Both the position numbers and the translations under genes were made by a program. A model generated the notes under the pieces. The model had not been told where the DNA came from and did no database searches. It worked only from the letters and a program-made list of their open reading frames with translations. From positions 22,041 to 86,040 of the forward strand of contig CAUZEG010000001.1 of the NCBI GenBank assembly GCA_963578775.1: 64,000 nt of DNA, given 5' to 3'. The DNA is from Myxococcales bacterium. Its GTDB lineage: Bacteria; Myxococcota_A; UBA9042; UBA3505. Positions 113-29,697 of this stretch are shown piece by piece (the stretch's first letter is position 1; each line of letters begins with the position of its first letter).

Positions 113-170
113 ATAGTTAGGTAGCCAATACCCAAAACCAACAAAATCAAAGAGCAGGAAGATTAACAGG

Positions 171-244
171 CACGCCTGAGAGGATTCGAACCTCTGACCC
201 ACGGATTAGAAGTCCGTTGCTCTATCCTGCTGAGCTACAGGCGC
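171..244 (-). tRNA. tRNA-Arg (anticodon TCT)
   Basis: The reverse complement gives acceptor GCGCCTG/CAGGCGT (G1-U72 wobble), D-stem GCTC/GAGC, anticodon stem ACGGA/TCCGT with loop CTTCTAA, and T-arm AGAGG-TTCGAAT-CCTCT. CCA is not fully encoded. Confidence 0.85.
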
Positions 245-9564: not shown

Positions 9565-10623
9565 TCATTCCACGACCCAGGTCTCCTTGCCGGTCACAAG
9601 ATTCTGGAGATCTCCAGTCCCTTTCTCCTCTTTGGCCTGCGTGACCTGGGATATCATTGTATCTTCGTATACCGGGTTGGACACACGGTGAAGAACGCCG
9701 ACCGGTACAGGAAAATCAGGAACATCAAAATCCGCCAACATATTGGAATAGGTCCGATTGCGGTGCGTCGGGTCATGGACGATGATATCGGACTCCGATA
9801 TGCCATTTTCTCCGATGGTAACCACTTCCGGGAGCCCGGCCGGGGTCATGCGAATACCCTTGTTTTTTTCTTTTCCGAAAATGAGCGGGGCCCCCTCGGT
9901 GAGGAGAAGTTGGTTATCAGCCTTTACATCCTTTTCCGTTACGTCGAAGAACGCACCGTCGTTGAAGATGTTGCAGTTCTGGAGAATCTCAATAAATGAG
10001 GTTCCCTTATGCTGGTAGGCTTCCATCAAGATCTTCGCCATATGCTTCGGATCCCGGTCAATAGTGCGGGCCACGAAGGTCGCATTGGCCCCAAGAGCCA
10101 AAGCAGTCGGCTTGATGGGCTGATCAATATTGCCCCAGGGCGATGATTTTGTGTTTTTGCCAACCTCACTGGTAGGGGAGAACTGTCCCTTTGTGAGGCC
10201 ATAAATCCGGTTGTTGAATAATAAGATGTTTACGTTCGGATTTCGTCGCAGGATATGGAGCAGGTGATTTCCGCCAATGGACAAGGCATCACCATCCCCC
10301 GTTACAAGCCAGACGCTCAACTCCGGATTGACCAACTTGATCCCCGTGGCAAAGGCGGGCGCACGACCGTGGATCGAATGAAAGCCGTAGGTGTTCATAT
10401 AGTACGGGAATCGCGACGAACAACCGATTCCAGACACAAATACGATCTTCTCTTTCGGGAGTCCCAGATCAGGCATCATCCTCTGGACGGCCGCCAGAAT
10501 GGCGTAATCTCCACAACCTGGACACCAGCGAACATCTTGATCACTGGAGAAGTCTTTTTTTGTTAATTTCGGGGCGGTGTTTCCGGCGTTTGGATCGGCA
10601 GCCATCGGAACACTCCTTTTCAC
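9565..10623 (-). CDS. korB: 2-oxoacid:ferredoxin oxidoreductase beta subunit (TPP-binding)
   Basis: WCPGCGD, GIGCSSR and TGDGD motifs. 4-bp overlap with korA. Confidence 0.88.
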   Translation of the reverse strand: MKRSVPMAADPNAGNTAPKLTKKDFSSDQDVRWCPGCGDYAILAAVQRMMPDLGLPKEKIVFVSGIGCSSRFPYYMNTYGFHSIHGRAPAFATGIKLVNPELSVWLVTGDGDALSIGGNHLLHILRRNPNVNILLFNNRIYGLTKGQFSPTSEVGKNTKSSPWGNIDQPIKPTALALGANATFVARTIDRDPKHMAKILMEAYQHKGTSFIEILQNCNIFNDGAFFDVTEKDVKADNQLLLTEGAPLIFGKEKNKGIRMTPAGLPEVVTIGENGISESDIIVHDPTHRNRTYSNMLADFDVPDFPVPVGVLHRVSNPVYEDTMISQVTQAKEEKGTGDLQNLVTGKETWVVE

Positions 10624-12470
10624 AGATATTTGTCGATTTCAGCGCGGATTTCGGAAACCTTGAATGGTAGGCCTCGAACGAGGTTGAAGCCGATTGCGTC
10701 GACGAGATATTCAGCTCGTATCATTTTACATAATTGTCCCATATTGATTTCTGGGATGAGAACGGTCTCAAATCTATTCAGAACATCTCCCAGATCTGCT
10801 GGGAAGGGATTGAGCCAGCGTAGATGACAATGGCCTACCGTGTGTCCGTCTGCCCGAGCGTGACGGACGGCTTCCCAGGTGGAGCCGTAGGTGGAGCCCC
10901 AGGTGAGGACCAGAAGCTTTCCTTTTTGGGCTCCATCGACCTCTGTTGGGGGGATGTCGTTACGGATGCGACTGACCTTACTCGCACGCAGACGTGTCAT
11001 CTTATCGTGATTCGTCGGATCATACGAAACGTTGCCCGTCAGATGTTCTTTTTCGAGCCCGCCCAGGCGGTGTTCGAGGTTCGGGGTTCCCGGGATCGCC
11101 CACGGCCGGGCTGCAGTGGCTGGATCTCGAAGATAGGGCTTAAAGCCCTTCGGGTCGGTCCGAAACTCCACTTCAATGGGCTCCAATTTGTCGACGTCGG
11201 GAACGAGCCATGGTTCGGCACCGTTAGCGACATAACCGTCCGATAAAAGCATGACCGGAATCATGTACTTCATCGCTATTCGCGAGGCTTCATAGGCCGC
11301 ATGAAATGCATCTCCTGGGCTGCGAATCGCTAAGACAGGTAGCGGTGAATCTCCGTTTCTACCATACATCGCCTGCAGCAGATCGGACTGCTCTGTTTTG
11401 GTGGGCAAACCTGTCGATGGCCCTCCGCGTTGGACGTTCACAATTACCGCAGGAAGTTCCGTCATAAGCGCAAGGCCGATGGCCTCGGCCTTCAAGGCGA
11501 CTCCTGGGCCACTTGTACTCGTAATTGCCAGGGCGCCCGTAAAGGCGGCACCGATGGTGGCGCACATGGCAGCAATTTCGTCTTCGGCCTGAAAGGTAAG
11601 TACACCGTAGTTACGCAACGCGGAAAGCGCATGAAGAATATCACTTGCCGGTGTAATCGGATACGATCCCTGGAACAGAGTTACACCGGCCTTTTGGGCC
11701 GCCGTCACAAAGCCAAGGGCCAGAGCGGTATTCCCAGTAATATTTCGATAAAGGCCGGGGGGTAGGTCGGCTTTGGGAATCATATATCGATTCTGGAAAA
11801 TCCCCGACACATCACCATAGATATGGCCGGCCTTCAGGGCGATAAGGTTCGCATCCATGATATCGGCCTTACGACCGAATTTTGCACGGATCCAGTCCTC
11901 GGTGGATTTCGGATTCCGGTCGAAGAGCCAGAACAGAACGCCCAGGGCATAGAAGTTCTTACATCGTCGCTTCTCACTGGTGCCCAGGGGGCTATCTGTC
12001 AGGGCCTTCTCAGTGAGATCCGTCAGGGGAATCTTGTAGAGGATGTAGTCATCCAGACTGCCATCCTCAAACGGATGGGTCTCATAGCCAGCCTTTTCGA
12101 TATCTCGCTTACCAAAGCCGTTTTCATTTACGATCAGGATGCCATCGGCCCGAAGCTCAGGTAGATTTTTCCGTAGGGCGGCGGCGTTCATCGCGACCAG
12201 GACATCGGGAGTATCTCCCGGCGTAAAGACTTCTTCGGAAGAAAACTGAATCTGAAATGCCGACACTCCGGGGAGGGTTCCGGCGGGAGCGCGGATCTCA
12301 GCGGGGAAGTCCGGCAGGGTGGACAAATCGTGTCCCGCAAGAGCAGAGTTTTGCGTGAACTGGGTTCCGGTAAGCTGTATACCGTCACCGGAATCGCCGG
12401 CAAATCGAATGGTAGCCTTTGTAAGGGCCGTATTCGTTACCGACTGACTAGCGGTAGCTGTGGATGTCAT
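10620..12470 (-). CDS. korA: 2-oxoacid:ferredoxin oxidoreductase alpha subunit
   Basis: 616 aa with GNTALALG...GSYPITPASD...TSTSGPG...RGGPSTGLPTKTEQSDL. Confidence 0.88.
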   Translation of the reverse strand: MTSTATASQSVTNTALTKATIRFAGDSGDGIQLTGTQFTQNSALAGHDLSTLPDFPAEIRAPAGTLPGVSAFQIQFSSEEVFTPGDTPDVLVAMNAAALRKNLPELRADGILIVNENGFGKRDIEKAGYETHPFEDGSLDDYILYKIPLTDLTEKALTDSPLGTSEKRRCKNFYALGVLFWLFDRNPKSTEDWIRAKFGRKADIMDANLIALKAGHIYGDVSGIFQNRYMIPKADLPPGLYRNITGNTALALGFVTAAQKAGVTLFQGSYPITPASDILHALSALRNYGVLTFQAEDEIAAMCATIGAAFTGALAITSTSGPGVALKAEAIGLALMTELPAVIVNVQRGGPSTGLPTKTEQSDLLQAMYGRNGDSPLPVLAIRSPGDAFHAAYEASRIAMKYMIPVMLLSDGYVANGAEPWLVPDVDKLEPIEVEFRTDPKGFKPYLRDPATAARPWAIPGTPNLEHRLGGLEKEHLTGNVSYDPTNHDKMTRLRASKVSRIRNDIPPTEVDGAQKGKLLVLTWGSTYGSTWEAVRHARADGHTVGHCHLRWLNPFPADLGDVLNRFETVLIPEINMGQLCKMIRAEYLVDAIGFNLVRGLPFKVSEIRAEIDKYL

Positions 12471-12515
12471 GGCTTTGAAACCAAATGAGAGTCGACGGTT
12501 CTCTAAACACGCAAC

Positions 12516-12536
12516 GAAAAAGTACGCCCTTGGGCG
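12516..12536 (-). terminator. Weak candidate intrinsic terminator after the deiminase-like gene
   Basis: Short GC hairpin (cgccc/gggcg) followed on the minus strand by TTTTT, in the 200-bp gap before korA. Confidence 0.3.
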
Positions 12537-12671
12537 TTGGGGCGACGATACTGCGATTTTTTACGGATGTCTAGACTAGCGACCTGTTTTTGCTTCGTAT
12601 TGTTGGGTTTTTTGACGTAAAAATGCATGCGGCCCGTTGTTAACTCTCTTTGTTGACCCCTATTCTGCGCC

Positions 12672-15050
12672 TCAGGAGAGCTGACGACAGTCTGCGGTCC
12701 GGCGACGTTTTTGACGGCATACGAAGAGCCCCAGGACCAGGATAAAGAGGGGCGAGATGGGCTGTGAATTGCCGTTTGGTGCGGCCGAGCATCCACCGGA
12801 TGACCCGGAACCATTACCCGGACCTGCATCTGCGGGCCCCGAACCATCACCACCGACGCTCTCGCAGGCGACACCGGTCAGGCAATCGAAATAGCCCGCC
12901 GCCTCTAACCAGCCGCAGCATTCGCTGCATTCTTGCTCGTGAAGGTTGTCATCGGATGTGCATACCCGGAGGGTATTCCCATTGCATTCTCCCGTCGTGG
13001 GGATCCCGTCACATGTATTCGGGTCCGCACCGCAGGCCAGCGGGAACTCGGGTGGGCCACTGCCCATCTGATCGCAATCGTAGCGATTGGCTTGATCATC
13101 CCAGCCGCAATTATCGGGTGTACCACAGTTTCGTTGTAGGAGAGTGCCGCCCTCACAGTACTTCACGAAGGGGCCCTCACAACAGCCTTGGTAGCTTATG
13201 CCGTCACAGCTGTCCTGCACAGGCACGCAGCTGGATAGCTGGCAGATCAGGCCGGCTCCGCACGTTCCACAGCTTCCGCCGCAACCATCATTGCCGCAGG
13301 TCTTTCCAGTACAATCGGGAACGCATTCTCCGGGACAGGCAATGGGGAATTCGGCTGGACCTTCTCCTGATTCCCCACAGTTGTAATAACCACCTTCCCA
13401 TCCACAAGTATTGTTACCGCAGTCCCATTCGACGATTTCGAAGTTTTCACAGAAGCGTACATTTCCCTCGTCGGTGCAACACCCCTGGTAGGTAAGACCC
13501 TGGCAGGGGTCCGGCTCGCAGCTGTTGGTGTCGCATTCCCATTTGGGGCCGTTACAACCTGTACTGACGTCACAGCTTCCGTCATACCCGGTGCCAGTGG
13601 TCGGAGAGCAGGTGCCTCCTGAACAGCTACCGGACGGTACCCAACGGGCCAGATTGCCTGCGGGTACGGTACGGCTGATACAGTGCATGGCCCCGCCCCA
13701 GGTGATGATCGTGTCCGATGGTATCTTCTGATGGTTCCACGAGGGCATAACCTCCTGCCAGATCTCCAGGGCCTCGTCTTCTAGATGCTCCTCGTCGTCA
13801 TAGGTCGGCCATAAATTGACCTGTCCGGTAGGTCCTTTGACGAAAGTAGAGTTGATATAGGTCCGCCAAACGCCCCGATTTACGCATGAGTGGCCGCTGG
13901 GGCAGTCGGTGTTATCAGTACAGAAATCGTCCATACTCCACCCTTCCTCGTCCACACAGCCTTTATTGGAAGGCATGGGCATTCGGATAACGGTCGGTGA
14001 TGTGCCGTCCGGGAGCACCACTTGCGAAAGGACCTGGGCGTTATCATCCAGGGTTTGCTTATTGCCGGCATCCTGGGCGTTTGTGTATTCCCCCAGGACG
14101 ATAGTGTTGTCATCAACAAGCTTAAAGAACATGTCGATGTGGGTGGTTCCCTCCTGCTGGAGTGGGCTGATGATCACGGTCTGGCTACAGCCTACGTAAT
14201 CGCTCATAAGCTGTTTGATTTCTGGTTCGCCCAGAGGGTTGCCCCACAAAATCCCCTGCGTTGTATAGCAGGTTCCCTGGCTATCCATCTGGAGGTTGCC
14301 TCCCTCAAATCCGAGGGGCACTCGGAAGGTGTCAATGCCTAGAGTTTCGTGACCGAAACGTGTTGGGATTGCGTCGTCGATCAACCGGTTCGGGTAATAC
14401 CGGAAGTCAACAAAAGCGATGTCGTTGGACGAGTTCTTTATGGGGAATGGTCCGTAGTCGATGACCCAGATCGTTTCGTAAGGCATTTGAATCCAGTGGA
14501 CCTTCGAGAAATCGCTGTTGGTCATGCCGAGGTCGGTCAGTCGGCTGATGATATTATTCTTATGGTTCTGGCTATCAAAGATCAGGTAGGCGTCCACGCC
14601 GGCTTCATGGGTCGAACTATAGATCATCTGTGCGAGTCCCTGATCAACCTGATTGGGGAGCCCGGTACCGGAGATCGTCAATAAGAGGATCTGCATGATC
14701 TCCCATTCCACCATGCCACTGATATTGGGTTCGACGGTTTTGGTTGGGATTGTAATGGCGTAGAATTCCGGATTCGCAGTCATCGGAGTGTGGCCATCCG
14801 CTTTTCCTGCGATTTTCTCTCCGGGGAGTGGAAAGGCCGGTAGCATGTCCGGAAATTCTCGCGCCGTATGCGGAATATATCCATCGTATCCGCGGAACTG
14901 CGGAGGTATCTCTGCCGGGCTGGCGGGTATGTTCGTGATGGTATGTTGCATGCCATCTGGATCCGGAGACTGGGTACAGCTCAGGGCCAGCAGCAGAGTC
15001 CAGACGAGTACGATGCACCTGCGATACGATCCGATCATGTTCATTTCCAT
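12672..15050 (-). CDS. Secreted/lipo-anchored agmatine-deiminase/Porphyromonas-type peptidylarginine-deiminase-like enzyme with three Cys-rich repeats and a MYXO-CTERM-like tail
   Basis: Signal peptide with lipobox (LALSC); GGNLQMD, HIDMFFKL and WGGAMHCIS catalytic-Cys motifs; three repeats of about 55 aa of the form YQGCC...CGW...EFP.AC; C-terminal GSGSSGGCSAAP + hydrophobic stretch + CRQKRRR. Confidence 0.7.
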   Translation of the reverse strand: MEMNMIGSYRRCIVLVWTLLLALSCTQSPDPDGMQHTITNIPASPAEIPPQFRGYDGYIPHTAREFPDMLPAFPLPGEKIAGKADGHTPMTANPEFYAITIPTKTVEPNISGMVEWEIMQILLLTISGTGLPNQVDQGLAQMIYSSTHEAGVDAYLIFDSQNHKNNIISRLTDLGMTNSDFSKVHWIQMPYETIWVIDYGPFPIKNSSNDIAFVDFRYYPNRLIDDAIPTRFGHETLGIDTFRVPLGFEGGNLQMDSQGTCYTTQGILWGNPLGEPEIKQLMSDYVGCSQTVIISPLQQEGTTHIDMFFKLVDDNTIVLGEYTNAQDAGNKQTLDDNAQVLSQVVLPDGTSPTVIRMPMPSNKGCVDEEGWSMDDFCTDNTDCPSGHSCVNRGVWRTYINSTFVKGPTGQVNLWPTYDDEEHLEDEALEIWQEVMPSWNHQKIPSDTIITWGGAMHCISRTVPAGNLARWVPSGSCSGGTCSPTTGTGYDGSCDVSTGCNGPKWECDTNSCEPDPCQGLTYQGCCTDEGNVRFCENFEIVEWDCGNNTCGWEGGYYNCGESGEGPAEFPIACPGECVPDCTGKTCGNDGCGGSCGTCGAGLICQLSSCVPVQDSCDGISYQGCCEGPFVKYCEGGTLLQRNCGTPDNCGWDDQANRYDCDQMGSGPPEFPLACGADPNTCDGIPTTGECNGNTLRVCTSDDNLHEQECSECCGWLEAAGYFDCLTGVACESVGGDGSGPADAGPGNGSGSSGGCSAAPNGNSQPISPLFILVLGLFVCRQKRRRTADCRQLS

Positions 15051-15192
15051 CTGATGAAGATGAGGGTGGTAAATGATGACCTGCGGCCGAGTGTTCCCCG
15101 GTTCCGGGCATCTTTTCCGGGTATGGTCGGAGCATAATACAGAAACAGGAAGACCACGTCACGGGGTAGAGGACGTTTTTCTTGTTAAATCA

Positions 15193-15906
15193 CTATCCAG
15201 TTGTGGTCTTCAGAAAGAGATCCAGCAGACTCGTCCCCGACGATCGTGCTTGTTGGATCTCATGATGGGTCCAGCTATTTCGAATGGACCCAGCATGCAG
15301 CAACATGACTTTCTGGGGCAGATGTTCGGCAAGGCCCATATCATGGGTCACGATGATGGTTGCACATCCCTCACGGCTCAGATCGTCTAACAGGTCTTTT
15401 GCGCGTAGCAGAACGGCTGGATCGAGAGCGGAAAGAGCTTCATCCAGGAGAAGGAGGCGTGGTCGGATTCCTTCGACCAGGGCAAATAATGCCCGCCGAA
15501 CCTCCCCGGGAGATGCCAATCGAAGGGGACGATCGGTCTTCGACTCAAGTCCCCACGCTGTAAGCAATGCTCGTGCTGTATCCTCCGGCGCATCATCGCT
15601 CTTCCAGGCCCGTAAGCCCAGGCAGACCAGCTCCAGAAGAGACAAGTAGGGAGGCAGATCGGGCTCCTGGGCGATTCGCAGACAAGGGGGATGACCATTG
15701 GCTGGACCGAATTCCACATGCCCCGTATTTGCCTGCAGTTCACCGACCAGGACTTTAAGAAGGGTCGACTTCCCGGCGCCGTTTGGTCCGACGAGACCGA
15801 CGACTTCTCCCGCATCAACGCGGAGATTCAACGCGCTCAATACCTCGAGTGAGCCATATCCAGCCGTCAGGTTCTCGACCGTAAGAGACGCTTGTTGTTC
15901 GGACAT
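15193..15906 (-). CDS. ABC transporter ATP-binding protein
   Basis: Walker A GPNGAGKST and signature/Walker B LLLLDEALSALD. Start taken at the internal MVMSEQ Met, overlapping the upstream permease stop. Confidence 0.8.
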   Translation of the reverse strand: MSEQQASLTVENLTAGYGSLEVLSALNLRVDAGEVVGLVGPNGAGKSTLLKVLVGELQANTGHVEFGPANGHPPCLRIAQEPDLPPYLSLLELVCLGLRAWKSDDAPEDTARALLTAWGLESKTDRPLRLASPGEVRRALFALVEGIRPRLLLLDEALSALDPAVLLRAKDLLDDLSREGCATIIVTHDMGLAEHLPQKVMLLHAGSIRNSWTHHEIQQARSSGTSLLDLFLKTTTG

Positions 15907-17234
15907 TACCATAGGGGGTGGCCTCCCCACCTGACGGTCAATATAACCAGCCCTGCGAGCAATGCAATGCGCACTCGAATCCACGATTCGGCGAAGAGAC
16001 GCGGTCCTATATGGCCGCCAAGAATACTAGCCAACCCAAAGACACCCCCCGCCAGGGCTGCCACGGCCCAGCTACTTTGATTCCATAGACAACCGGCGCA
16101 TAGAGCGGCTCCAATGAGAATCTGAATGAGCAAGGCGGGCCCGTTGAGCCGTCCGGAACCCAATGCCGCGGGAACCGGATTAGAGCTCGTGGCAGACGGC
16201 ATCAGATAGTGGCTCAGTTGCGAGGTTACCAGTCGTTGTCGGATCCACATGGCTGGGATGTCTAAAACGAGACCGAAGATAATCGCCCCAAAGACCAGCT
16301 TCCATTGATGCTCGGGTGCTGCTGCAACCAACCAGACCCCGAGGATCCCACATAGGACCGGTAGGAGTGGGGCTTGTCGTAGCGCCTGCACACGCACTGC
16401 GAGCCAGGGATAGCTGTATCCACCGCTCTGGGTTATCGATCGACTAGCTTCCTGGTATGGCGTCGCGAGAAGGAGGCCCTGACGGTCCAGGAAGTGGAGT
16501 CGAGGTGCTGCTGCGAGCAGATTGCCAACGCCCTTTTTGTCGAACCATACCAAGGCCGCGATAGCACTTGCTACTCCCGTCGCTACGACCACAATCAAGG
16601 GTACGATATTTCCCGTCTCCGACCAGATACGGTGGGAGAAATAGCAGATAAGGGCGTAGCTACCGAGAATACCGTAGAGTACCGCCAGGCCATATATCGC
16701 CGGCGCGACGTCGGCCGGTAAAATGTCGCGTCCCAGCATCCGGCCGACTTTTGATTGCGAGCCGGTCGTGGCCAGGGATCGGCAGAGCCAGCCAAGGCCC
16801 GCTCCGAAGATGGGTAAGCCGATCAGGAGCGGTAATGAGATAATGAATAACGGAGCCGCCGCTTCCGTGGTACGCGGATTGGCCATCAGGCATGTACCGG
16901 TGGTGGCCGCTACCAGAATCAGGAGTGCTATACATTGATGGTGGCGATACGCCTGGCGAACGGGAGAAGCCGGGGCCGGAATGGAGGCAACGGTTCTCAA
17001 GATGATATTTCGGAGAAAAAAATCGTAGGCAAAAAGGCCTTCGATGATGAGCGCGATCAGTACCAGGAGTAGCTGGTCATCTCGGGATAAGCCGGGGCCT
17101 GCATGACCAAGAAGTAGTCCCGCGGCGATCACAAGTGCGGAGCCGGAGAGTGCCAGCAAGGGCGTTCGCCGATAGGCATATTGACCGAGTACTGGCCAGG
17201 AATTGGTTTTACTGGAGGTGATATGCGTCTCCAT
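15906..17234 (-). CDS. Polytopic membrane protein, putative ABC-type permease partner
   Basis: 442 aa, highly hydrophobic with at least 10 predicted helices, immediately upstream of the ATPase. Confidence 0.55.
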   Translation of the reverse strand: METHITSSKTNSWPVLGQYAYRRTPLLALSGSALVIAAGLLLGHAGPGLSRDDQLLLVLIALIIEGLFAYDFFLRNIILRTVASIPAPASPVRQAYRHHQCIALLILVAATTGTCLMANPRTTEAAAPLFIISLPLLIGLPIFGAGLGWLCRSLATTGSQSKVGRMLGRDILPADVAPAIYGLAVLYGILGSYALICYFSHRIWSETGNIVPLIVVVATGVASAIAALVWFDKKGVGNLLAAAPRLHFLDRQGLLLATPYQEASRSITQSGGYSYPWLAVRVQALRQAPLLPVLCGILGVWLVAAAPEHQWKLVFGAIIFGLVLDIPAMWIRQRLVTSQLSHYLMPSATSSNPVPAALGSGRLNGPALLIQILIGAALCAGCLWNQSSWAVAALAGGVFGLASILGGHIGPRLFAESWIRVRIALLAGLVILTVRWGGHPLW

Positions 17235-17252
17235 TAAACCCGACGAGGAAAC

Positions 17253-18536
17253 TCATCGTAGGATGTTCTCGGTTCGGCCCGGTCCGACCGAAATCATGCG
17301 GATCGACGTTTCTGTTTCCTGCTCAATACATAGGAGCAGATTTTGTGCGTTCTCGGGAAGGGCACCGAATTCCCGGATTCCGGAGATGTCCTCAGAGAAC
17401 CCTGGGAAGTCGCGAAAAATGGGCTTCACGGCAGCCAGATCGTCGCGCCACGGCGCTATGATCGAAGTGCGGTTACCATCGACCTCATATCCAACACAGA
17501 CACGGATCGGGTCCACGCCCTGTAATACATCCAGTTTGGTGATGGCCAATTCTGTGAACCCGTTTGTGGTACAGACGTATCGTAATAATGGAAGGTCGAG
17601 CCAACCGCATCGTCGTGGTCGACCGGTCGTCGACCCATACTCGCGGCCCACTTCACGAAGGTGATCCAGGACGGGACCATCGAGGAGTTCGGTGGGGAAG
17701 GGCCCCTCTCCAACACGTGTTTGATAGGCCTTAACGATGCCAACTGACCGGGAAATAGTATGCGGTGGAACACCGGCCCCGGACGCGATCTCGGTCAGTC
17801 CGGTATGGCTGCTCGTGACGTAGGGTAATGTGCCATAGGTCCGGTCCAGAAGGCAGCCCTGGGCTCCTTCGAAGAGAATTGCCTGCCCCTTCTTAATCGC
17901 GTCGCAAAGCTGTAGTGACACATCGTGAATAAGTGGGGCCAACATATCCGCAGTCGGCCACACCCGTTCGACAATCTCTTCTGTGCTGAATGTGTCCGCT
18001 TCCAGCGCCCGAAGTTCCCGATTTCGCCGCGGCAGGACCCGGTCCACAGCACGGCTGAAATCGTCCTTGGAGCGTAGGGACTGCACCAGGGCCGAGATCC
18101 GGCCCATACGATCTTCGTACGCGGGACCGATGCCGCGTTTTGTGGTCCCAATCTTTTTATCACCGGCCTCTAGCTCCCGGGCAGCATCAAGTGCTCGGTG
18201 GACCGGGAGGATCAAAGTGGCGTTACCGGCCAGACGAAGCCGTTCGGTGGCCGGAATACCCCGGGCATGCAAGCCCTCGAGTTCCTCCACAAGTATAATC
18301 GGGTCGATTACGCAGCCAGGACCGATAGCGCAGATTTTATCGCCGTGGAGAATGCCGCTTGGAATATGGTGCAGGATGGTCTTTTCACCGTCGACAACCA
18401 GGGTATGCCCGGCGTTATTTCCACCCTGGAATCGAACCACCCAATCGTAGTCTGGGGCTAATGCGTCGACGATCTTCCCTTTCCCTTCGTCACCGAATTG
18501 GGCTCCGACTACCGCTGCTGTGTTTCGTATACTCAT
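17253..18536 (-). CDS. purA: Adenylosuccinate synthetase
   Basis: QFGDEGKGKIVD, GGNNAGHT and LHHIPSG motifs. Confidence 0.92.
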   Translation of the reverse strand: MSIRNTAAVVGAQFGDEGKGKIVDALAPDYDWVVRFQGGNNAGHTLVVDGEKTILHHIPSGILHGDKICAIGPGCVIDPIILVEELEGLHARGIPATERLRLAGNATLILPVHRALDAARELEAGDKKIGTTKRGIGPAYEDRMGRISALVQSLRSKDDFSRAVDRVLPRRNRELRALEADTFSTEEIVERVWPTADMLAPLIHDVSLQLCDAIKKGQAILFEGAQGCLLDRTYGTLPYVTSSHTGLTEIASGAGVPPHTISRSVGIVKAYQTRVGEGPFPTELLDGPVLDHLREVGREYGSTTGRPRRCGWLDLPLLRYVCTTNGFTELAITKLDVLQGVDPIRVCVGYEVDGNRTSIIAPWRDDLAAVKPIFRDFPGFSEDISGIREFGALPENAQNLLLCIEQETETSIRMISVGPGRTENILR

Positions 18537-19786
18537 CGCTGTGCTCCAAGGGACTGAATGTCCGAAATCAACGCATCCATATCGCCCGTTCGTTCGTTTT
18601 TCTCCGACTCGGCGGTCAAGGTCCAGTGAAGACCCGCGTCAGACACCTCTACAAGCGGGAACGTCTTCACCGTGAATGGTTCGGGCCATACGGCGGCAGA
18701 GAACCCGGCGTCTCGCAGGCTCCGTAGAACGGGTTCGACGCCAGCCCTGCTTCCCTTGACGTAGATTACGGGTCGATTGGTTTGCCCGGCACCACAACAG
18801 TCGGCAAGGGCATGAAGGTCAATTGCAAAACCAGCGGCCGGAAGGTCCAGGTTGAAGCGGGTCAGGAATCCGTCGTAACGTCCACCGGCCAGAATGGCCT
18901 GCCCCGAGCCGGGCGCGAAGGCCTCGAATACGACACCTGAATAGTAGGAACGGTCGCGGATTTCGGTGAAATCCAGGCGAATCATTTCTGGGGCGCAATT
19001 GGAGTGCAGTATATTGAGCCGTTGGCCGAAGTCTTCAAGAGCCGACTGTACTGGTTGGGGCCAGTCGAGCTGTAGCCAGGCCGGGAAGTCGGACGAGATA
19101 CCACTGAGCATGGGAAGCCGCGCTGCTAGTCGAATGTCTCCGCCGTGTTCTTCGACCATTTTGACCACATCATCAAATGCTTTACGGCCCAGGGCATCGA
19201 CCACCGGTTCGCGTTGCGCAGGTTCCGTCAGGCCGATTGCAGAGAGGAGAGCGTTGAGGACGGCGTTGTCTCCCACGGTGAGGATCGCATCTTCCAGGCC
19301 CAGCGCTGATAAACATTGCAGCGCAAGCTGTAGCATTTCGACATCGGCCTCCGGGCCGGTCCAACCGATCAGCTCGATTCCAGTGTGGGTTCGCTCTCGG
19401 CTCGCCAAGGCGTTTCCTCCGGTAACTCGATAAACGGGACCCGAATAGGATATCCGTACCGGTCCTTCTGCCGGTTTATGCATGGCGAGGTGTCGACCCA
19501 CCTGTGGGGTCAGATCGGGCCGCAGAATCAGTGGGTGGCCTGTCTCTGGGTCCACAAGATGGAATAGTTGCGCACGGCGGTCCCCGCGAAGAGCCGTGGC
19601 GAGTGCATCGTATCTCTCAATCAACGGTGTGCGGATCAGTCGATATCCATGTTGGCGGAACTCGTGCAGGAGGAGTTGCTCGGTGTCGGCCATCCATTCG
19701 GCGAGATCAGCCGGGTAATCACGGACACCCAGAGGGAGCAGCGCGTGACCGGAATGGGGGGAGAATGTATCTACGTCTGCTTGCAT
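18533..19786 (-). CDS. hisZ: ATP phosphoribosyltransferase regulatory subunit (HisRS-like)
   Basis: Class-II aaRS-like core without an anticodon-binding region; the hisZ-purA pairing is conserved; 4-bp overlap with purA. Confidence 0.7.
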   Translation of the reverse strand: MQADVDTFSPHSGHALLPLGVRDYPADLAEWMADTEQLLLHEFRQHGYRLIRTPLIERYDALATALRGDRRAQLFHLVDPETGHPLILRPDLTPQVGRHLAMHKPAEGPVRISYSGPVYRVTGGNALASRERTHTGIELIGWTGPEADVEMLQLALQCLSALGLEDAILTVGDNAVLNALLSAIGLTEPAQREPVVDALGRKAFDDVVKMVEEHGGDIRLAARLPMLSGISSDFPAWLQLDWPQPVQSALEDFGQRLNILHSNCAPEMIRLDFTEIRDRSYYSGVVFEAFAPGSGQAILAGGRYDGFLTRFNLDLPAAGFAIDLHALADCCGAGQTNRPVIYVKGSRAGVEPVLRSLRDAGFSAAVWPEPFTVKTFPLVEVSDAGLHWTLTAESEKNERTGDMDALISDIQSLGAQR

Positions 19787-19820
19787 TACTTGAGGATTCT
19801 CGCGGGAGCCATCATTGCGT

Positions 19821-21425
19821 TTATAGACTGATCTGTTTACAGGCGTGAATATGGTCGATATTGCTGATCTTGTTCAGGGTCTCTTCGCCCACGGCATCGT
19901 CAATATTCCATACGGCGAGTGCCTGTTTCTGGCCGGTCTCGGACAAAGATACCTGTAAGCCGTTGACGTTGATTCCGGAGTCGCCCAGGAGAGTGCCCAC
20001 CTTACCGATGATTCCGGGTACATCTGCGTTGCGGCTGACCAGAAGCTTCCCGTCGGGGATGACTTCGATTCGATAATCATCGATGCGCACAATACGAGAA
20101 TCCTCGTCTCCGAAGAGGGTTCCATGGACTTCGTTCGTGTGTTTTGGTCCCGCAAGTCGAATCGAGATCAGACGGGTAAAGCCAGTGGTCGTGGAGTCGA
20201 ACACCTCGTTCACGTCGATACCGCGTTCCTCTGCCAGCACAGGTGCATTAACCAGGTTGACGGTAGTACCAAGGCCCGATTCCAAGACACCCTTCAGTGC
20301 CGCATTGGTGACCATCGCTACGACACCAGGCTCGAAAATCTCACCATGATAGCCCACCCGGATCTCGCTTACGCCACCTTCGTGGTAATGGCCGGCGAAC
20401 TTCCCGAGTTTTCGTGCCAGGGTGACGTAGGGCCAGAGAGCAGCCTGTTCTTCCGCTTGAACACGTGGAAGATTGACGGCGTTTCGGACCACGTTGCGAA
20501 CGAAATAGTCGATAATTTGCTCGACGAGTTCACGGGCTACAAGGGTCTGGGCCTCGTGGGTACTCGCGCCGAGATGAGGCGTTCCCTGAAAGTTGGATTG
20601 TCCGACCAGTGCGCATTCACCGGGAGGTTCCGATTCGAAGACGTCCATCGCGGCGCCGGCTATCCAGCCCTTTTCCAGCCCTTCGGCGAGAGCATCTTCC
20701 ACCACGATTCCACCGCGGGCACAGTTGATGAGATAGGCCGACGATTTCATCTTCTGGATTTCGTCACGACCGATCATATGGCGTGTTTTTGGAGTCAACG
20801 GTGTGTGAATGCTGATGAAATCGGATGACTGAAGCAGGTCATCTATATTCCCACAATGCTTGATACCCATCTGTTCCATTCGTTCTGGAGATACGAAGGG
20901 ATCAAAACTCTGTACGTGCATCTGTAGTGCTCTGGCGCGATCGGCGACGATACCACCGATATTTCCAAGGCCGATGAGACCGAGTGTGGCGTTGCGTATT
21001 TCGCGCCCCATGAACTTCTTTTTGTCCCAACTACCCGATCGGATGGTCTGACCGGCGTTCACAAGATGCCGCGCTAGACTCAGCATATGGGCAATCGCCA
21101 GCTCCGCCGCGCTTGTGGAATTTCCACTGGGAGCGTTCATTACGATGACGCCTTTTTGCGTGGCGGCCTGTACGTCGATGTTGTCCACACCAATTCCGGC
21201 TCGTCCAATGAGTTTCAAACGGTCGGTCGCTTGAAGGACTTCTTGCGTTACCTTGGTTCGGCTCCGGACGATGAGAACATCGTAATCGCCGATGACTTCG
21301 ATAAGTTCAGACAAGGAAATACCGGCGCGATCGTCAACGGAGAACCCGCCGGCCTCATCAAGCATCGTTTGTGCGACCGGATTCAGGCTATCCGAAATCA
21401 GGACGCGAACCTTGGAAGTGCTCAT
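19821..21425 (-). CDS. serA: D-3-phosphoglycerate dehydrogenase
   Basis: 2-hydroxyacid dehydrogenase fold (GLIGLGNIGG NAD site) plus C-terminal ASB/ACT region. Start at the MSTSKVRVLISD Met. Confidence 0.85.
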   Translation of the reverse strand: MSTSKVRVLISDSLNPVAQTMLDEAGGFSVDDRAGISLSELIEVIGDYDVLIVRSRTKVTQEVLQATDRLKLIGRAGIGVDNIDVQAATQKGVIVMNAPSGNSTSAAELAIAHMLSLARHLVNAGQTIRSGSWDKKKFMGREIRNATLGLIGLGNIGGIVADRARALQMHVQSFDPFVSPERMEQMGIKHCGNIDDLLQSSDFISIHTPLTPKTRHMIGRDEIQKMKSSAYLINCARGGIVVEDALAEGLEKGWIAGAAMDVFESEPPGECALVGQSNFQGTPHLGASTHEAQTLVARELVEQIIDYFVRNVVRNAVNLPRVQAEEQAALWPYVTLARKLGKFAGHYHEGGVSEIRVGYHGEIFEPGVVAMVTNAALKGVLESGLGTTVNLVNAPVLAEERGIDVNEVFDSTTTGFTRLISIRLAGPKHTNEVHGTLFGDEDSRIVRIDDYRIEVIPDGKLLVSRNADVPGIIGKVGTLLGDSGINVNGLQVSLSETGQKQALAVWNIDDAVGEETLNKISNIDHIHACKQISL

Positions 21426-21512
21426 GGGGGCCTCAAACGGATGTGCGTAGACGGACATTCGGGCCCGCCGATCTTCATTTGCATCGGGATGTAACAACCC
21501 CGCCTGGGCTCG

Positions 21513-27460: not shown

Positions 27461-29590
27461 CTAAGGACTTATATCGACGCTCGATATGGTCTCATCACTC
27501 CATAGATTTACGTAATCCACTTCCCCGTATTTCGTGTTTTCGCCGGTTGTGACCTGGTTGGTCTGTACGCCGAGAACAATCGTATAAGAGCCAGCCTTGT
27601 CGGGGATAAAGGACGCCGTGGAACCAGTCGTAACGTTCAACTTTGCAGCACTGTCTGCGGGTTTGTCGATGATATACCAGGTATAACCGCTGGCCGTGAT
27701 ATGTGCGTCACCGGAGAGACTACCAAGGCCACTTAGTTGGATTTCTGTTCCTACAGGGGCCTCGTCGATTGGGGCGATAATCGCTGTCGGAAGAACAATA
27801 CCTGCGTTCGGTTGGTTGTAGCCACGAAGTGCGACATTCCATACGGATGTATCACCCGCAGGCGGATAGACGTCGTCGTATTCTATTTCCAGATTGGTAT
27901 GGGAAATGATGGCCTCGCCCTCCGCCTTGAAACGAACGGTGAACGGAAGGAGTGTGAGTGGCGGGACGTCGAATCCTACGCCCGATGCGACGCCGTCCAA
28001 CTCAAAATTGATGGGGATGCCAGCAAAGCCGGGCGGTTCCACAAGACGGACATCCGTTACCCGAAGTGTATCGAGCCCCTCATTGGCGATGATCATGGTG
28101 CGTTCCTTCTTTTCGCCTTCCGAATGGAACTGTACGTAGGAAGCGGCGACGCCACCCTGGGACGGATACACCTGTATCAACGGCTTCGTGATACCACCTC
28201 GCAGGGGTACTGTGATTTCGGATTGGTAGGGGTTCTCATAGCTGATGACGAGATCGCGGTCGAAACCCTCTGCGGTAAATATGGTCAGGCCTTCGCCACT
28301 CGTTGGCGCTGCATAGTGCACGATTACATTCATCGAGTTCTGGGGTTGGATGGCGTAAAAAGAATCGAATGGCTTGGGATCTTCGCCCGGCCGTTGGACT
28401 TCCAGATAGTACGCGCCATATGCATCGTCGGGTTCGACGGCACCTTCTTCCAGGCGCACGGATCCTGGGCCTTCGTTGTATAGATTGATGATCTTCGAAG
28501 ACGCATCCCCAGCGCCGACAATATCGGTGAAATCCACGTATCCTTTCGCCATATCCTCGTAGCTCAAGACGAGCTTTCCTTCCTTGACGTTGCTTTTTAA
28601 TTCCACATTTGTGATGGGGTGCACAGGATCGTTGGTATGAACCTGAATGATGACGTTGTCTGGTCCCTGATCATCGATCGGTTGGTAACGAACCTCAAAC
28701 GTCAGCTTGGCTCCCGGGTTTGAGATTTGTGGCTGAATCACGCTACTTGGGGCGGGTTTATCGGTAATCGTGAATTCCGGGTTGGGATTCTTCAGGTCCA
28801 CATCGTAGAAGACCAGATCCTGGCTACCGTCGTTGACGATCTCGAACACCTGTGACTCCGGTTGAGCCGGCGTACCGTTCAGGTAGGTATAACTGGGGGG
28901 AAAGACCTGGACGGCAGCGGCTTCGCGCGGTGGCGTAAAGGCGATGAGATGCACTCTCTTATCCGGGTCGTTGGATTCGATTCGGAGGAACTGGGGAGTA
29001 CGCAGATCGGGAAGGGCCCCCGGCTCATAGCTCATCTGGAACTCCACCGTTTCAAAGGTGGAATTGGCGGGCAGTGTAAATGGCAGGTCATACGTGCCGG
29101 CACTCCATTTAACCTGGATGTCTTCGTTGCCCTTACAGGTGTAGGAGATAGAGTCATCCGCCCCGTTGCTACAATCGTTGCTCTGGACGCAGGTTTGAAA
29201 ACATCGGAGCCCGTCGCAATAACTCCCGGCTTTACATTCGGAGCTGCTTTCACAATCCCAGCCAACACATTCGCCGTTGTCACAGACAAAGCCATCGGCG
29301 CAGCCCAGATCGTCGGCGCAACCCATTGCCTCACAGATACCAGGTTCTAGCCGAAGTACACTCAGAACCAGGTCCTCACCACCCAGGTTTTGAATCACGA
29401 CACGAGCTGTCGCGGTCTGGCCCTGCCCAGTCACGAGTTCCGGGAAACTAAACACACCGGATTCCGCTTCTTCTTCGATGGTTATTTCCATCTGGCCGGA
29501 ATAGGTCTGACCAAATTTCCCGCCGCAAGCTGTGAGGACGAACAGCCCTACAAAGAGCATAAGGAAGTGAAAACGAATGTTCGGACGCAT
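27461..29590 (-). CDS. Large secreted lipoprotein (709 aa) with Cys-rich module, Ig-like (choice-of-anchor-D/ASH-like) repeats and a C-terminal PKD-like domain
   Basis: Lipobox LTACGG; CxxxxC-rich segment (residues about 85-150); repeated LxIxNxGxxxLxI beta-sandwich signatures; C-terminal GYTWYIIDKPADS...GSYTIVLGV. Confidence 0.6.
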   Translation of the reverse strand: MRPNIRFHFLMLFVGLFVLTACGGKFGQTYSGQMEITIEEEAESGVFSFPELVTGQGQTATARVVIQNLGGEDLVLSVLRLEPGICEAMGCADDLGCADGFVCDNGECVGWDCESSSECKAGSYCDGLRCFQTCVQSNDCSNGADDSISYTCKGNEDIQVKWSAGTYDLPFTLPANSTFETVEFQMSYEPGALPDLRTPQFLRIESNDPDKRVHLIAFTPPREAAAVQVFPPSYTYLNGTPAQPESQVFEIVNDGSQDLVFYDVDLKNPNPEFTITDKPAPSSVIQPQISNPGAKLTFEVRYQPIDDQGPDNVIIQVHTNDPVHPITNVELKSNVKEGKLVLSYEDMAKGYVDFTDIVGAGDASSKIINLYNEGPGSVRLEEGAVEPDDAYGAYYLEVQRPGEDPKPFDSFYAIQPQNSMNVIVHYAAPTSGEGLTIFTAEGFDRDLVISYENPYQSEITVPLRGGITKPLIQVYPSQGGVAASYVQFHSEGEKKERTMIIANEGLDTLRVTDVRLVEPPGFAGIPINFELDGVASGVGFDVPPLTLLPFTVRFKAEGEAIISHTNLEIEYDDVYPPAGDTSVWNVALRGYNQPNAGIVLPTAIIAPIDEAPVGTEIQLSGLGSLSGDAHITASGYTWYIIDKPADSAAKLNVTTGSTASFIPDKAGSYTIVLGVQTNQVTTGENTKYGEVDYVNLWSDETISSVDISP

Positions 29591-29697
29591 GTTGACCTCA
29601 TCAACGGATAATCAGGGACGTGGGTGGGAAAATTACCTTGGCTAATCTCTCTGCCTGTATCGGCATAGCCTACGAGTTTGAACTATCAATGCAAGCT

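What the first reader, a model, noticed from the sequence alone, without database searches (positions are those of the whole stretch)
12672..15050. Cell-surface agmatine-deiminase/PPAD-like enzyme with Cys-rich repeats and MYXO-CTERM-like anchor
A guanidino-group-modifying enzyme core is embedded in a secreted protein. It carries GGNLQMD, HIDMFF and the catalytic-Cys motif WGGAMHCIS, all typical of the agmatine deiminase / Porphyromonas peptidylarginine deiminase family. The core follows a lipoprotein-type signal peptide and is followed by three repeats of about 55 aa (YQGCC...CGW...EFP.AC) and a GSGSSGGCS + TM + CRQKRRR tail that resembles the MYXO-CTERM sorting signal. Cytoplasmic AguA is normally a stand-alone enzyme of about 350 aa, so an exported, anchored version suggests extracellular citrullination or agmatine conversion. 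It may act as a surface protein-modifying enzyme, analogous to P. gingivalis PPAD.
Basis: partly seen in the sequence, partly recalled or inferred. Interest (0 to 1): 0.6.

Follow-up and report, generated by a model that had tools for sequence, protein, structure and literature searches.

The report
Exported, membrane-anchored PPAD-like arginine deiminase
This gene encodes an exported, probably lipid-anchored enzyme of the agmatine/peptidyl-arginine deiminase superfamily, from an uncultured marine bacterium (probably Myxococcota), whose active-site loops resemble the only known bacterial protein-citrullinating enzyme of this type (P. gingivalis PPAD) more than ordinary agmatine deiminases; no member of its family has been studied.

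Summary
Window 12672-15050 (-) is an intact 792-aa ORF; public gene calls start at Met5, giving 788 aa. It has a lipobox signal peptide and a PF04371 deiminase core (E = 8e-32). All five catalytic residues (D198, H304, D306, N400, C457) are invariant in 97 relatives. Three Cys-rich "CGW" repeats follow, then a Gly/Ser-Cys-helix-Arg tail.

It is not AguA: it scores 72 bits against a 382-bit equivalog cutoff and has no agmatine-pathway neighbours. A family profile hits PPAD best (E = 1.5e-45; AguA 1e-27). The family shares PPAD's lack of the AguA "FNAWGG" loop and has Arg at PPAD Arg154. Most members also lack the AguA lid loop. PPAD's Arg152 and Tyr233 are not conserved, so the substrate is unresolved.

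The tail is not reported by MYXO-CTERM (TIGR03901). The 71%-identical orthologue's tail passes, as do most family tails tested. A family tail HMM scores the query at 46 bits (best shuffle 14).

The CGW module is an uncurated portable domain found in 844 representative proteins. It also occurs on trypsin-like, clostripain, M23, amidase and SLT enzymes.

I file it as a new variant of a known kind, of moderate interest. Surface location and citrullination are inferred.

The parts
12672..15050 (-). Whole ORF, 792 aa including the stop codon. Public gene calls start at Met5 (nt 15038), giving 788 aa.
   Evidence: The 71%-identical full-length orthologue P0001 covers 100% of it.
14976..15050 (-). 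Signal peptide with lipobox (aa 1-25: n-region RR, h-region CIVLVWTLLLAL, lipobox LALS|C25).
   Evidence: It matches the PROSITE PS51257-type pattern, as do 72 of 97 family members under the strict pattern. AF2 predicts a helix at aa 5-23 followed by a disordered linker at aa 27-42.
14763..14975 (-). Disordered linker plus a family-conserved N-terminal segment (aa 26-96; LPxxxLPGE..GKAD motif). No Pfam or NCBIfam family matches it.
13656..14762 (-). Guanidino-group-modifying catalytic domain (PF04371 / pentein alpha-beta propeller), aa 97-465. Catalytic residues are D198, H304, D306, N400 and C457. Cys261 and Cys288 are invariant.
13869..13970 (-). A 34-aa, 4-Cys insertion (aa 361-394) in the loop before the YxN asparagine, at the position of the AguA lid loop. 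It is present only in the query, P0001 and P0005.
   Evidence: Weak sub-threshold Dumpy_DPY/EB-type hits, 22 bits against a cutoff of 27. AF2 pLDDT is about 87-92.
13509..13655 (-). Post-catalytic Cys-rich segment (aa 466-514), conserved in the family (C476, C481, C493, C499, C506).
13326..13508 (-). CGW repeat 1 (aa 515-575).
   Evidence: pLDDT is above 90 in the domain model.
13212..13325 (-). CxPxCxGKxCGxDGCGGSCGxC module (aa 576-613). There is one copy here and up to 15 in longer paralogues.
   Evidence: No Pfam family. The model has low confidence here.
13023..13211 (-). CGW repeat 2 (aa 614-676).
12852..13022 (-). CGW repeat 3 (aa 677-733). It is divergent and lacks the EFPxAC end.
12792..12851 (-). 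Gly/Ser/Asp-rich disordered spacer (aa 734-753).
   Evidence: pLDDT is below 50 over aa 736-765.
12675..12791 (-). C-terminal tripartite sorting-type tail: Cys754, a spacer, a hydrophobic helix (about aa 767-778), RQKRRR, and a 9-aa extension.
   Evidence: AF2 predicts a helix at aa 767-784.

Best explanation
The gene encodes an exported, catalytically competent guanidino-group deiminase of the PF04371 superfamily. It belongs to a distinct clade found almost only in uncultured Myxococcota-type MAGs.

Proposed route (inferred):
1. Sec export through a lipoprotein signal peptide, with Cys25 lipidated.
2. Transient inner-membrane anchoring by the C-terminal helix.
3. Processing at Cys754 by a myxosortase-type CPBP protease, as shown for MYXO-CTERM proteins.
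4. Display at the cell envelope or cell surface, with many disulfides stabilising the protein.

Chemistry (shown by conservation): Cys457 attacks the guanidinium carbon held by Asp198 and Asp306, with His304 and Asn400 assisting. The reaction releases ammonia and leaves a ureido (citrulline-type) product.

Substrate (inferred): the family lacks the AguA FNAWGG loop, and most members also lack the AguA lid loop that encloses that enzyme's small-molecule tunnel. It keeps the PPAD Arg154 equivalent. I therefore think peptide- or protein-bound arginine (or free Arg-like compounds) is more likely than agmatine. Because PPAD's Arg152 and Tyr233 are absent, the enzyme need not be restricted to C-terminal arginines.

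The three CGW repeats are portable modules shared with secreted proteases and peptidoglycan hydrolases. They probably act as a targeting or stalk element of a lytic or scavenging surface enzyme set.
For: Enzyme identity:
- PF04371, E = 8.4e-32.
- All five catalytic residues are invariant in 97 sequences and align with PPAD and AguA.
- The AF2 model has pLDDT 86 and matches pentein deiminases at E of about 1e-22 to 1e-25.

Not AguA:
- TIGR03380 gives 72.5 bits against a cutoff of 381.8.
- None of five genomic contexts contains aguB, putrescine carbamoyltransferase, carbamate kinase or an antiporter. The plasmid AguA genes sit beside permease or polyamine-transporter genes.

PPAD-like site:
- The family profile gives PPAD 159 bits (E = 1.5e-45), against about 100 bits or less for characterised or annotated agmatine deiminases.
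- The family shares PPAD's absence of the 10-aa FNAWGG loop.
- It shares Arg at the R154 position, where AguA has Trp.
- Most members have a short loop where AguA has a lid of about 25 aa.
- Published roles of PPAD R152, R154 and Y233 come from PMC4893104 and PMC4487231.

Export and anchoring:
- A lipobox is present in 72 of 97 members.
- The protein has 50 Cys, and Cys261 and Cys288 are invariant.
- 76 of 97 members carry a tail aligned on an invariant Cys.
- 66 of 76 tails hit TIGR03901, and 7 of 9 tested pass the 20-bit cutoff, including the orthologue P0001.
- The query tail scores 46.4 bits on a family tail HMM that excluded it; the best shuffle scores 13.9.
- The MYXO-CTERM/myxosortase/T2SS mechanism comes from PMC11980579.

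Module:
- 844 representative proteins carry it.
- It co-occurs with Trypsin, Amidase_2, M23, M64, SLT and clostripain domains.
- 54 of 144 module proteins carry the same tail type.
Against: - The query's own tail is not reported by TIGR03901. It has prolines just before a short hydrophobic stretch and a 9-aa extension after the basic cluster.
- No myxosortase gene was seen in the window or in about 20 kb of flanks.
- The organism's phylum is inferred from homologues only. RecA was uninformative.
- PPAD's indispensable Arg152 is Pro220 here, Tyr233 is Gly301, and PPAD Thr180 is Glu249 as in AguA.
- Pairwise identity is about 23-25% to both PPAD and AguA, so the family is a third clade, not a PPAD orthologue.
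- The query's sub-clade has a 34-aa Cys-rich insertion at the lid-loop position, which could close the site again.
- The fold search cannot tell PPAD from AguA.
- No activity, localisation or expression data exist.
Confidence: 0.6

Rival explanations
1. It is an extracytoplasmic agmatine deiminase. It would convert environmental agmatine, or another small guanidino amine, to N-carbamoylputrescine plus ammonia at the cell envelope, as a nitrogen-scavenging step.
For: The PF04371 fold matches AguA structures as well as it matches PPAD. Glu249 in the EGG motif and the acidic residue at position 300 are shared with AguA. PPAD's carboxylate clamp Arg152 and Tyr233 are absent. The query's sub-clade has an insertion at the lid position.
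Against: The AguA equivalog score is far below its cutoff. The FNAWGG loop is missing, and most family members also lack the long AguA lid. Invariant Arg222 replaces the AguA Trp. No aguB, transporter or carbamoyltransferase neighbours appear in five contexts. The profile scores PPAD about 60 bits above AguA.
Confidence: 0.25
2. The protein stays in the periplasm or on the inner membrane, held by the N-terminal lipid and/or an uncleaved C-terminal helix. It would then act on periplasmic substrates and would not be surface displayed.
For: The tail fails the curated MYXO-CTERM threshold. No sortase or T2SS gene was identified with confidence nearby. The lipobox alone would suffice for envelope anchoring.
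Against: The tail is typical of the family, and most family tails hit MYXO-CTERM. The CGW module travels with secreted lytic enzymes whose targets lie outside the cell. MYXO-CTERM proteins studied so far reach the surface through the T2SS (PMC11980579).
Confidence: 0.15
3. It is a non-catalytic adhesin or pseudo-enzyme that only uses the deiminase fold as a binding domain.
For: The Cys-rich repeat region is large and resembles adhesin architecture. No pathway context is present.
Against: All five catalytic residues, and the GGN, THIDMF and G-A-x-HC motifs, are invariant across 97 sequences at 30-70% identity. This indicates selection for catalysis.
Confidence: 0.03
4. The tail belongs to the JDVT-CTERM/MrtJ system rather than to MYXO-CTERM.
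For: JDVT-CTERM is the only sorting-signal HMM that reports the query tail, at 17-18 bits. The tail has a single Cys in the signature motif and a Pro about 10 residues after it.
Against: The score is below the cutoff of 27. The near-invariant Asp-Pro motif is Gln-Pro here. JDVT-CTERM proteins occur about once per genome, next to their protease, in Pseudomonadota (bioRxiv 10.1101/2023.06.07.544157). This family has several paralogues per genome and no adjacent CPBP gene.
Confidence: 0.03

Closest known systems
Porphyromonas gingivalis peptidylarginine deiminase (PPAD; PDB 4YT9, 4YTG, 5AK7)
   Same: Both are PF04371 pentein catalytic domains and the best profile match (E = 1.5e-45). Catalytic residues D130/H236/D238/N297/C351 correspond to D198/H304/D306/N400/C457. 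Both lack the AguA FNAWGG loop, and PPAD's short pre-Asn loop is shared by most family members (though not by the query's sub-clade). Arg154 corresponds to the invariant Arg222. Both are exported, envelope-anchored enzymes with a non-catalytic C-terminal region and a C-terminal sorting signal.
   Different: Identity is only about 24%. Arg152 becomes Pro220 (His in most of the family), Tyr233 becomes Gly301, and Thr180 becomes Glu249. There is no Ig-like domain and no T9SS C-terminal domain. In their place are Cys-rich CGW modules, a lipobox and a MYXO-CTERM-type tail. The phylum and habitat differ (marine or aquatic MAGs). The query also has a 34-aa Cys-rich insertion at the active-site lid position.
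Agmatine deiminase AguA / AgDI / plant AIH (TIGR03380; PDB 2JER, 2EWO, 1VKP, 6NIB, 3HVM, 6B10)
   Same: Same superfamily, fold and catalytic residues. The EGG-motif Glu and the acidic residue four positions before the catalytic His are shared.
   Different: The query scores 72 bits against the 382-bit equivalog cutoff. AguA is cytoplasmic, about 330-390 aa, oligomeric, and has a closed tunnel built from the FNAWGG loop and a long lid loop. Its genes sit with transporters and the aguB or carbamoyltransferase pathway. None of this holds here.
MYXO-CTERM / myxosortase (MrtX) clients such as TraA and myxosortase-dependent hydrolases (TIGR03901; NF038112 M36 peptidase; NF045638 phytase-like)
   Same: N-terminal signal peptide, an extracellular hydrolase or adhesin body, a Gly/Ser-rich spacer, an invariant Cys, a TM helix and an Arg cluster at the C-terminus. 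The family occurs in Myxococcota with several paralogues per genome.
   Different: The query's tail is below the model's reporting level, although its orthologue's tail passes. There is no curated 'myxosortase-dependent deiminase' family. An N-terminal lipobox is also present. No myxosortase was seen on the available contig.
CBM14 / peritrophin-A type small disulfide-rich chitin-binding domains (EHEP 8IN6, CHIT1 CBM14)
   Same: Small beta-hairpin, disulfide-rich modules arranged in tandem. These are the only (weak) structural neighbours of the CGW repeats. The CGW module also rides on peptidoglycan-active enzymes, which is compatible with a GlcNAc-polymer ligand.
   Different: The best Foldseek hit has E = 4e-3, probability 0.51 and TM below 0.2, so it is not significant. 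No Pfam match exists. The similarity is a lead only.

Membership tests
PF04371 (PAD_porph) guanidino-group-modifying enzymes | Pfam model score above the gathering threshold | tested here: met
   111.1 bits against a cutoff of 25, E = 8.4e-32, over aa 164-463.
PF04371 (PAD_porph) guanidino-group-modifying enzymes | Catalytic Cys/His/Asn plus two guanidinium-binding Asp residues | tested here: met
   D198, H304, D306, N400 and C457 align with PPAD D130/H236/D238/N297/C351 and with three AguAs. They are invariant in 97 relatives.
PF04371 (PAD_porph) guanidino-group-modifying enzymes | Five-fold alpha/beta propeller (pentein) fold | tested here: met
   The AF2 model has pLDDT 86. Foldseek hits 1XKN, PPAD and AguA structures at E = 1e-20 to 1e-25, with target TM 0.66-0.83.
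Agmatine deiminase AguA (TIGR03380 equivalog) | Equivalog HMM score above the cutoff | tested here: not met
   72.5 bits against 381.8. NF010070 gives 67 bits against 483.
Agmatine deiminase AguA (TIGR03380 equivalog) | FNAWGG loop and long lid loop that close the substrate tunnel | tested here: not met
   The 10-aa FNAWGG loop is absent. The AguA-type lid is absent, replaced in the query by an unrelated 4-Cys insertion and in most of the family by about 6 aa.
Agmatine deiminase AguA (TIGR03380 equivalog) | Cytoplasmic stand-alone enzyme in a polyamine or agmatine gene context | tested here: not met
   A signal peptide or lipobox, 50 Cys and a tail are present. Neighbours are housekeeping genes and differ between contexts.
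PPAD-type peptidylarginine exo-deiminase | Carboxylate clamp Arg152 + Arg154 and gate residue Tyr233 | tested here: not met
   Only the Arg154 equivalent (Arg222) is conserved. Arg152 becomes Pro220 and Tyr233 becomes Gly301. Residue roles come from PMC4893104 and PMC4487231.
PPAD-type peptidylarginine exo-deiminase | Ig-like domain after the catalytic domain and a T9SS C-terminal domain | tested here: not met
   The profile alignment to PPAD ends at chain residue 315, the end of the catalytic domain. The C-terminal region has no Pfam match and no Ig-like fold hit.
PPAD-type peptidylarginine exo-deiminase | Deimination of peptidyl (C-terminal) arginine | not testable with these tools
   This needs an enzyme assay.
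MYXO-CTERM sorting domain (TIGR03901) | HMM score at or above the 20-bit cutoff | tested here: not met
   The model does not report the query, either full length or as an isolated 48-60-aa tail, at E <= 10. The orthologue P0001's tail scores 23.5 bits, and 7 of 9 tested family tails score 20 bits or more.
MYXO-CTERM sorting domain (TIGR03901) | Tripartite layout at the extreme C-terminus: Cys-containing signature, TM helix, Arg-rich cluster, plus an N-terminal signal peptide | tested here: met
   SSGGC754, then PLFILVLGLFV, then RQKRRR, with 9 extra residues at the end. Cys754 falls in the invariant Cys column of 76 family tails. The family tail HMM gives 46.4 bits against 13.9 for the best shuffle.
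MYXO-CTERM sorting domain (TIGR03901) | Host encodes a myxosortase (MrtX/MrtC/MrtP) and many other MYXO-CTERM proteins | not testable with these tools
   Only about 104 kb of the genome was examined (the window plus about 20 kb of flanks). It contains no CPBP protease and no second tail. Myxosortase is not expected near its clients.
JDVT-CTERM (NF033191) | HMM score at or above 27 bits, a DP motif about 9 residues after the Cys, and an adjacent MrtJ protease | tested here: not met
   13.9-18.4 bits. The motif is QP, not DP. No adjacent CPBP gene was found.
Bacterial lipoprotein (PROSITE PS51257-type lipobox) | Uncharged hydrophobic h-region followed by [LIVMFWSTAG](2)-[LIVMFYSTAGCQ]-[AGS]-C, with Cys at position 15-35 and a basic n-region | tested here: met
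   The sequence LLLALSC25 matches the pattern (Cys21 if counted from Met5, with RR in the n-region). 72 of 97 family members also match. No dedicated predictor was available.

The most novel reading that the evidence does not exclude
This clade would be the first protein- or peptide-arginine deiminase system of the PF04371 type outside Porphyromonas. It would be a multi-paralogue family of doubly lipid-anchored surface enzymes in uncultured aquatic Myxococcota. They would carry the same uncurated CGW targeting module as trypsin-like and clostripain-like (Arg-cleaving) proteases and cell-wall hydrolases. Together these enzymes would process prey or environmental proteins, in a parallel to the gingipain-PPAD pair, releasing ammonia and citrullinated peptides. 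Because PPAD's Arg152 and Tyr233 are absent, the enzymes might also accept internal arginines.
Probability: 0.25. Interest if true: 0.7.

Novelty: new variant of a known kind. Interest (0 to 1): 0.5.

Why it matters
PPAD is described as the only characterised bacterial PF04371 peptidyl-arginine deiminase (bioRxiv 10.1101/2020.07.16.207027). It is studied mainly as a peculiarity of one oral pathogen.

This family is large. I found 191 confirmed matches (tblastn-confirmed stretches) in species-representative genomes, often with several paralogues per genome. It combines an exported enzyme with PPAD-like active-site loops, a different sorting system and a portable Cys-rich module. If it acts on peptides, extracellular arginine deimination would be a general envelope function in predatory or proteolytic environmental bacteria, relevant to marine nitrogen recycling and prey processing.

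The family also offers a clean natural test set for MYXO-CTERM/myxosortase sorting of enzymes, and for what the CGW module binds. If it is only an exported agmatine deiminase, it is a modest architectural variant.

Tried and rejected
- **Generic MYXO-CTERM membership of the query tail.** I tested it three ways (full length, 60 aa, 48 aa). The model never reported it, so I do not file the tail as a TIGR03901 member.
- **JDVT-CTERM.** Rejected: the score is sub-threshold, there is no DP motif, and the biology does not fit.
- **Pfam and NCBIfam on sub-regions.** I scanned the N-terminal region, the insertion, the repeats and the GCGG module. Nothing reached threshold.
- **Fold-based discrimination of PPAD from AguA.** Not possible, because both rank equally.
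- **Operon logic.** The neighbours are housekeeping genes. They are conserved only in the closest relative and not across the family.
- **Sortase or T2SS in the neighbourhood.** No CPBP gene was found in the window or in about 20 kb of flanks. A pseudopilin-like cluster at 54.7-57.7 kb could not be assigned to a T2SS or to type IV pili.
- **Taxonomy from RecA.** Uninformative. There is an exact self-match, but the named hits are about 70% identical Gammaproteobacteria.
- **Simple NJ tree and identity comparison.** The family is about equidistant from PPAD and AguA, so I dropped the claim that it is a 'PPAD orthologue'.
- **AgDI specificity literature.** The Llacer paper is not held, and the plant AIH paper did not give transferable amine-binding residues.
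- **Promoter and terminator scan.** It gave only weak consensus matches.


Full report
**Observation**

Window 12672-15050 (-) is an uninterrupted 792-aa ORF. The same gene is on record in public metagenome assemblies, called from Met5 (788 aa), on a 105-kb ENA contig. Its GC content is like that of the rest of the window.

PF04371 (PAD_porph) matches aa 164-463 at E = 8.4e-32. The three C-terminal repeats are real. Local alignment z-scores against composition-preserving shuffles are 18 (r1/r2), 8 (r2/r3) and 4.2 (r1/r3), and no shuffle reached the observed score. The third repeat is divergent.

One is a CxPxCxGKxCGxDGCGGSCGxC module between repeats 1 and 2. The other is a 34-aa, four-Cys insertion inside the catalytic domain.

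**Enzyme core**

A search of 5.8 billion proteins returned 96 relatives, 650-1380 aa long. The best, P0001, is 71% identical over the full length. In a 97-sequence alignment, D198, H304, D306, N400 and C457 are invariant, as are Cys261 and Cys288.

A profile of 60 family members hits P. gingivalis PPAD best (E = 1.5e-45, 159 bits, covering the whole catalytic domain). The Chlorobium 1XKN protein comes next (1e-38). Characterised or annotated agmatine deiminases follow at 1e-27 to 1e-16.

The AlphaFold model built with that alignment is confident (mean pLDDT 86) and has the pentein fold. Foldseek ranks PPAD and AguA structures equally, so the fold alone does not decide the subfamily.

**Not AguA, but only partly PPAD**

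The NCBIfam AguA equivalog scores 72.5 bits against a cutoff of 381.8.

I aligned the query and 11 relatives with the PPAD catalytic domain (reconstructed) and three annotated AguA proteins fetched from plasmids. The family and PPAD share several features:
- absence of the 10-residue AguA 'FNAWGG' loop;
- Arg at PPAD Arg154 (query Arg222, invariant), where AguA has Trp;
- absence of a 2-residue insertion before the catalytic His;
- in most members, a short loop before the YxN asparagine, where AguA has a lid of about 25 residues.

Goulas et al. attribute the closed AgDI site to such diverging segments.

Other features do not match PPAD:
[quoted passage not shown] It is Pro220 here, and His in 53 of 97 members.
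- Tyr233, which blocks C-terminally extended substrates, is Gly301 (95 of 97 members).
- Thr180 is Glu249, as in AguA.

Pairwise identity is about 23-25% to both PPAD and AguA. The family is therefore a third clade of PF04371 with PPAD-like loop architecture around the active site. The substrate is not settled. I favour peptide-bound or free arginine-type substrates over agmatine, and I see no reason to expect strict C-terminal specificity.

In the query, P0001 and P0005 only, a 30-34-aa four-Cys insertion occupies the lid-loop position. Its effect on substrate access is unknown.

**Export and anchoring**

The N-terminus is a lipoprotein-type signal (…LLLALS|C25) that matches the PROSITE-type lipobox pattern. 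So do 72 of 97 relatives under the strict pattern. The mature protein has about 48 Cys, which fits an extracytoplasmic, disulfide-rich protein.

The C-terminus is tripartite: SSGGC754, a spacer, PLFILVLGLFV, then RQKRRR. The generic MYXO-CTERM model never reports it, whether full length or as an isolated tail. Only JDVT-CTERM hits, below threshold.

However, the tail position is homologous across the family:
- 76 of 97 relatives end the same way, with one invariant Cys column.
- 66 of 76 tails hit TIGR03901.
- 7 of 9 tails examined individually reach the 20-bit cutoff, including the orthologue P0001 at 23.5 bits.
- An HMM built from 74 relatives' tails, without the query or P0001, scores the query at 46.4 bits. 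The family median is 48. The best of 1000 shuffles is 13.9, and other window ORF tails score 0.5 or less.

MYXO-CTERM proteins are cleaved by the CPBP protease myxosortase MrtX in a Cys-dependent way. They reach the surface through the T2SS, and lipidation of the Cys is proposed (PMC11980579).

I found no CPBP protease in the window or in about 20 kb of flanks. This is expected for a housekeeping sortase and is not informative.

The sorting route is therefore an inference from family membership, not a demonstrated property. The combination of an N-terminal lipobox and a C-terminal Cys tail suggests double lipid anchoring, which is unexplained.

**Cys-rich modules**

Neither Pfam nor NCBIfam recognises the repeats. 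A separate model of aa 470-735 is confident within the repeats (pLDDT above 90). It finds no significant solved structure. The weak top hits are CBM14/peritrophin-A-type chitin-binding domains.

A profile of the three repeats finds 844 representative proteins among 1.84 billion, with up to 20 copies per protein. Of 66 of these that I scanned:
- 8 carry PAD_porph;
- 8 carry Trypsin;
- 4 carry Amidase_2;
- 3 carry Peptidase_M23;
- 2 each carry M64, SLT and LTD;
- 1 carries clostripain.

Of 144 module proteins, 54 have the same tail type and 87 have a lipobox. The module is therefore a portable element of an exported lytic or hydrolytic enzyme set. A glycan (GlcNAc-polymer) ligand is a lead, not a result.

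**Context and taxonomy**

The neighbours are an ABC ATPase with an 11-TM orphan protein upstream, and KorA/KorB, LipA and PDH genes downstream. This order is conserved in P0001's contig. Four other family members sit in unrelated contexts, with no agmatine-pathway genes. The gene is therefore a stand-alone unit.

Of the 80 best genome loci that encode relatives, nearly all are labelled Myxococcales, Myxococcota or 'Deltaproteobacteria' MAGs, and several genomes have three paralogues. The best species-representative match is only 47% identical. RecA gave no usable label. Placement in Myxococcota is therefore likely but inferred.

**Verdict**

- The tail fails the curated MYXO-CTERM model and is supported only through family evidence.
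- The enzyme is neither AguA nor a PPAD orthologue.
- Surface location and citrullination are untested.

The protein and its relatives already exist in public databases under automatic names ('agmatine deiminase family protein', 'MYXO-CTERM domain-containing protein', 'hypothetical'). I found no paper on this family in the literature searches I ran. I rate it a new variant of a known kind, with moderate interest (0.5).

Noticed in passing
window 13869-13970 (-), aa 361-394: A 34-aa, four-Cys insertion lies inside the catalytic domain, at the loop where AguA enzymes carry their active-site lid. It is present only in the query, P0001 and P0005; the family median loop is about 6 aa. It gives weak sub-threshold DPY/EB-module hits.
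   Followed up: partly
window 14976-15050 and 12675-12791 (-); family proteins P0001-P0096: Most family members carry both an N-terminal lipobox (72 of 97) and a C-terminal Cys-TM-Arg tail (76 of 97). This implies possible lipid anchoring at both ends. I found no discussion of this combination in the myxosortase papers I read.
   Followed up: partly
window 12852-13508 (-); proteins P0116-P0259: The CGW repeat is an uncurated portable domain. It occurs in 844 representative proteins, with up to 20 copies per protein. It is attached to trypsin-like, clostripain, M23, M64, Amidase_2 and SLT domains as well as to deiminases.
   Followed up: partly
window 13212-13325 (-); P0009-P0023: A second Cys-rich unit, CxPxCxGKxCGxDGCGGxCGxC, occurs once here and 10-15 times in the 1200-1380-aa paralogues. 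No Pfam family matches it.
   Followed up: partly
window 15193-17234 (-): An 11-TM protein with no Pfam or NCBIfam match overlaps an ABC ATPase gene immediately upstream of the deiminase. The pair is conserved next to the orthologue in L001 (76-79% identity).
   Followed up: no
window 10620-21497 versus L001: The deiminase is 71% identical to its orthologue, while the flanking housekeeping genes are 76-92% identical. The deiminase therefore evolves faster than its neighbours, as exposed proteins often do.
   Followed up: no
window 27461-35443 (-): Three consecutive large lipoprotein-like ORFs (709, 1088 and 817 aa) carry choice-of-anchor D domains. The middle one has weak CglD-like and MIDAS-adhesin similarity.
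   Followed up: no
window 35838-37628 (+): A 596-aa secreted-looking protein is 4.5% Cys, has a Cys-rich C-terminus, and has no Pfam or NCBIfam match.
   Followed up: no
window 50736-57672 (-): A cluster of small proteins carries prepilin-type N-methylation motifs and a PilX_N-like start. It sits beside orphan ORFs of 1064 aa and 261 aa. It could be T2SS pseudopilins or type IV minor pilins; I could not assign it.
   Followed up: no
window 60349-63696 (-); L093: A 1115-aa multihaem cytochrome c has an MtrC/MtrF-like domain. Just beyond the window edge it is adjacent to Rieske/cytochrome b genes and haem a synthesis genes.
   Followed up: no
window 48649-50661 (-): A NuoH homologue has an N-terminal extension of about 290 aa (670 aa in total; NuoH matches aa 291-622).
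   Followed up: no
window 46380-47384 (-): A GlnII-type (type II) glutamine synthetase scores 615 bits, above the equivalog cutoff.
   Followed up: no
window 35-244 (-): tRNA-His(GTG) and tRNA-Arg(TCT) genes lie at the window edge. These are the only Rfam matches in the window.
   Followed up: yes
The exact protein (788 aa from Met5) is on record on at least 3 contigs, yet it did not appear among the homology-search hits, where the best was 71% identical. P0118 is a 182-aa fragment with a near-identical tail, from another sample.
   Followed up: partly
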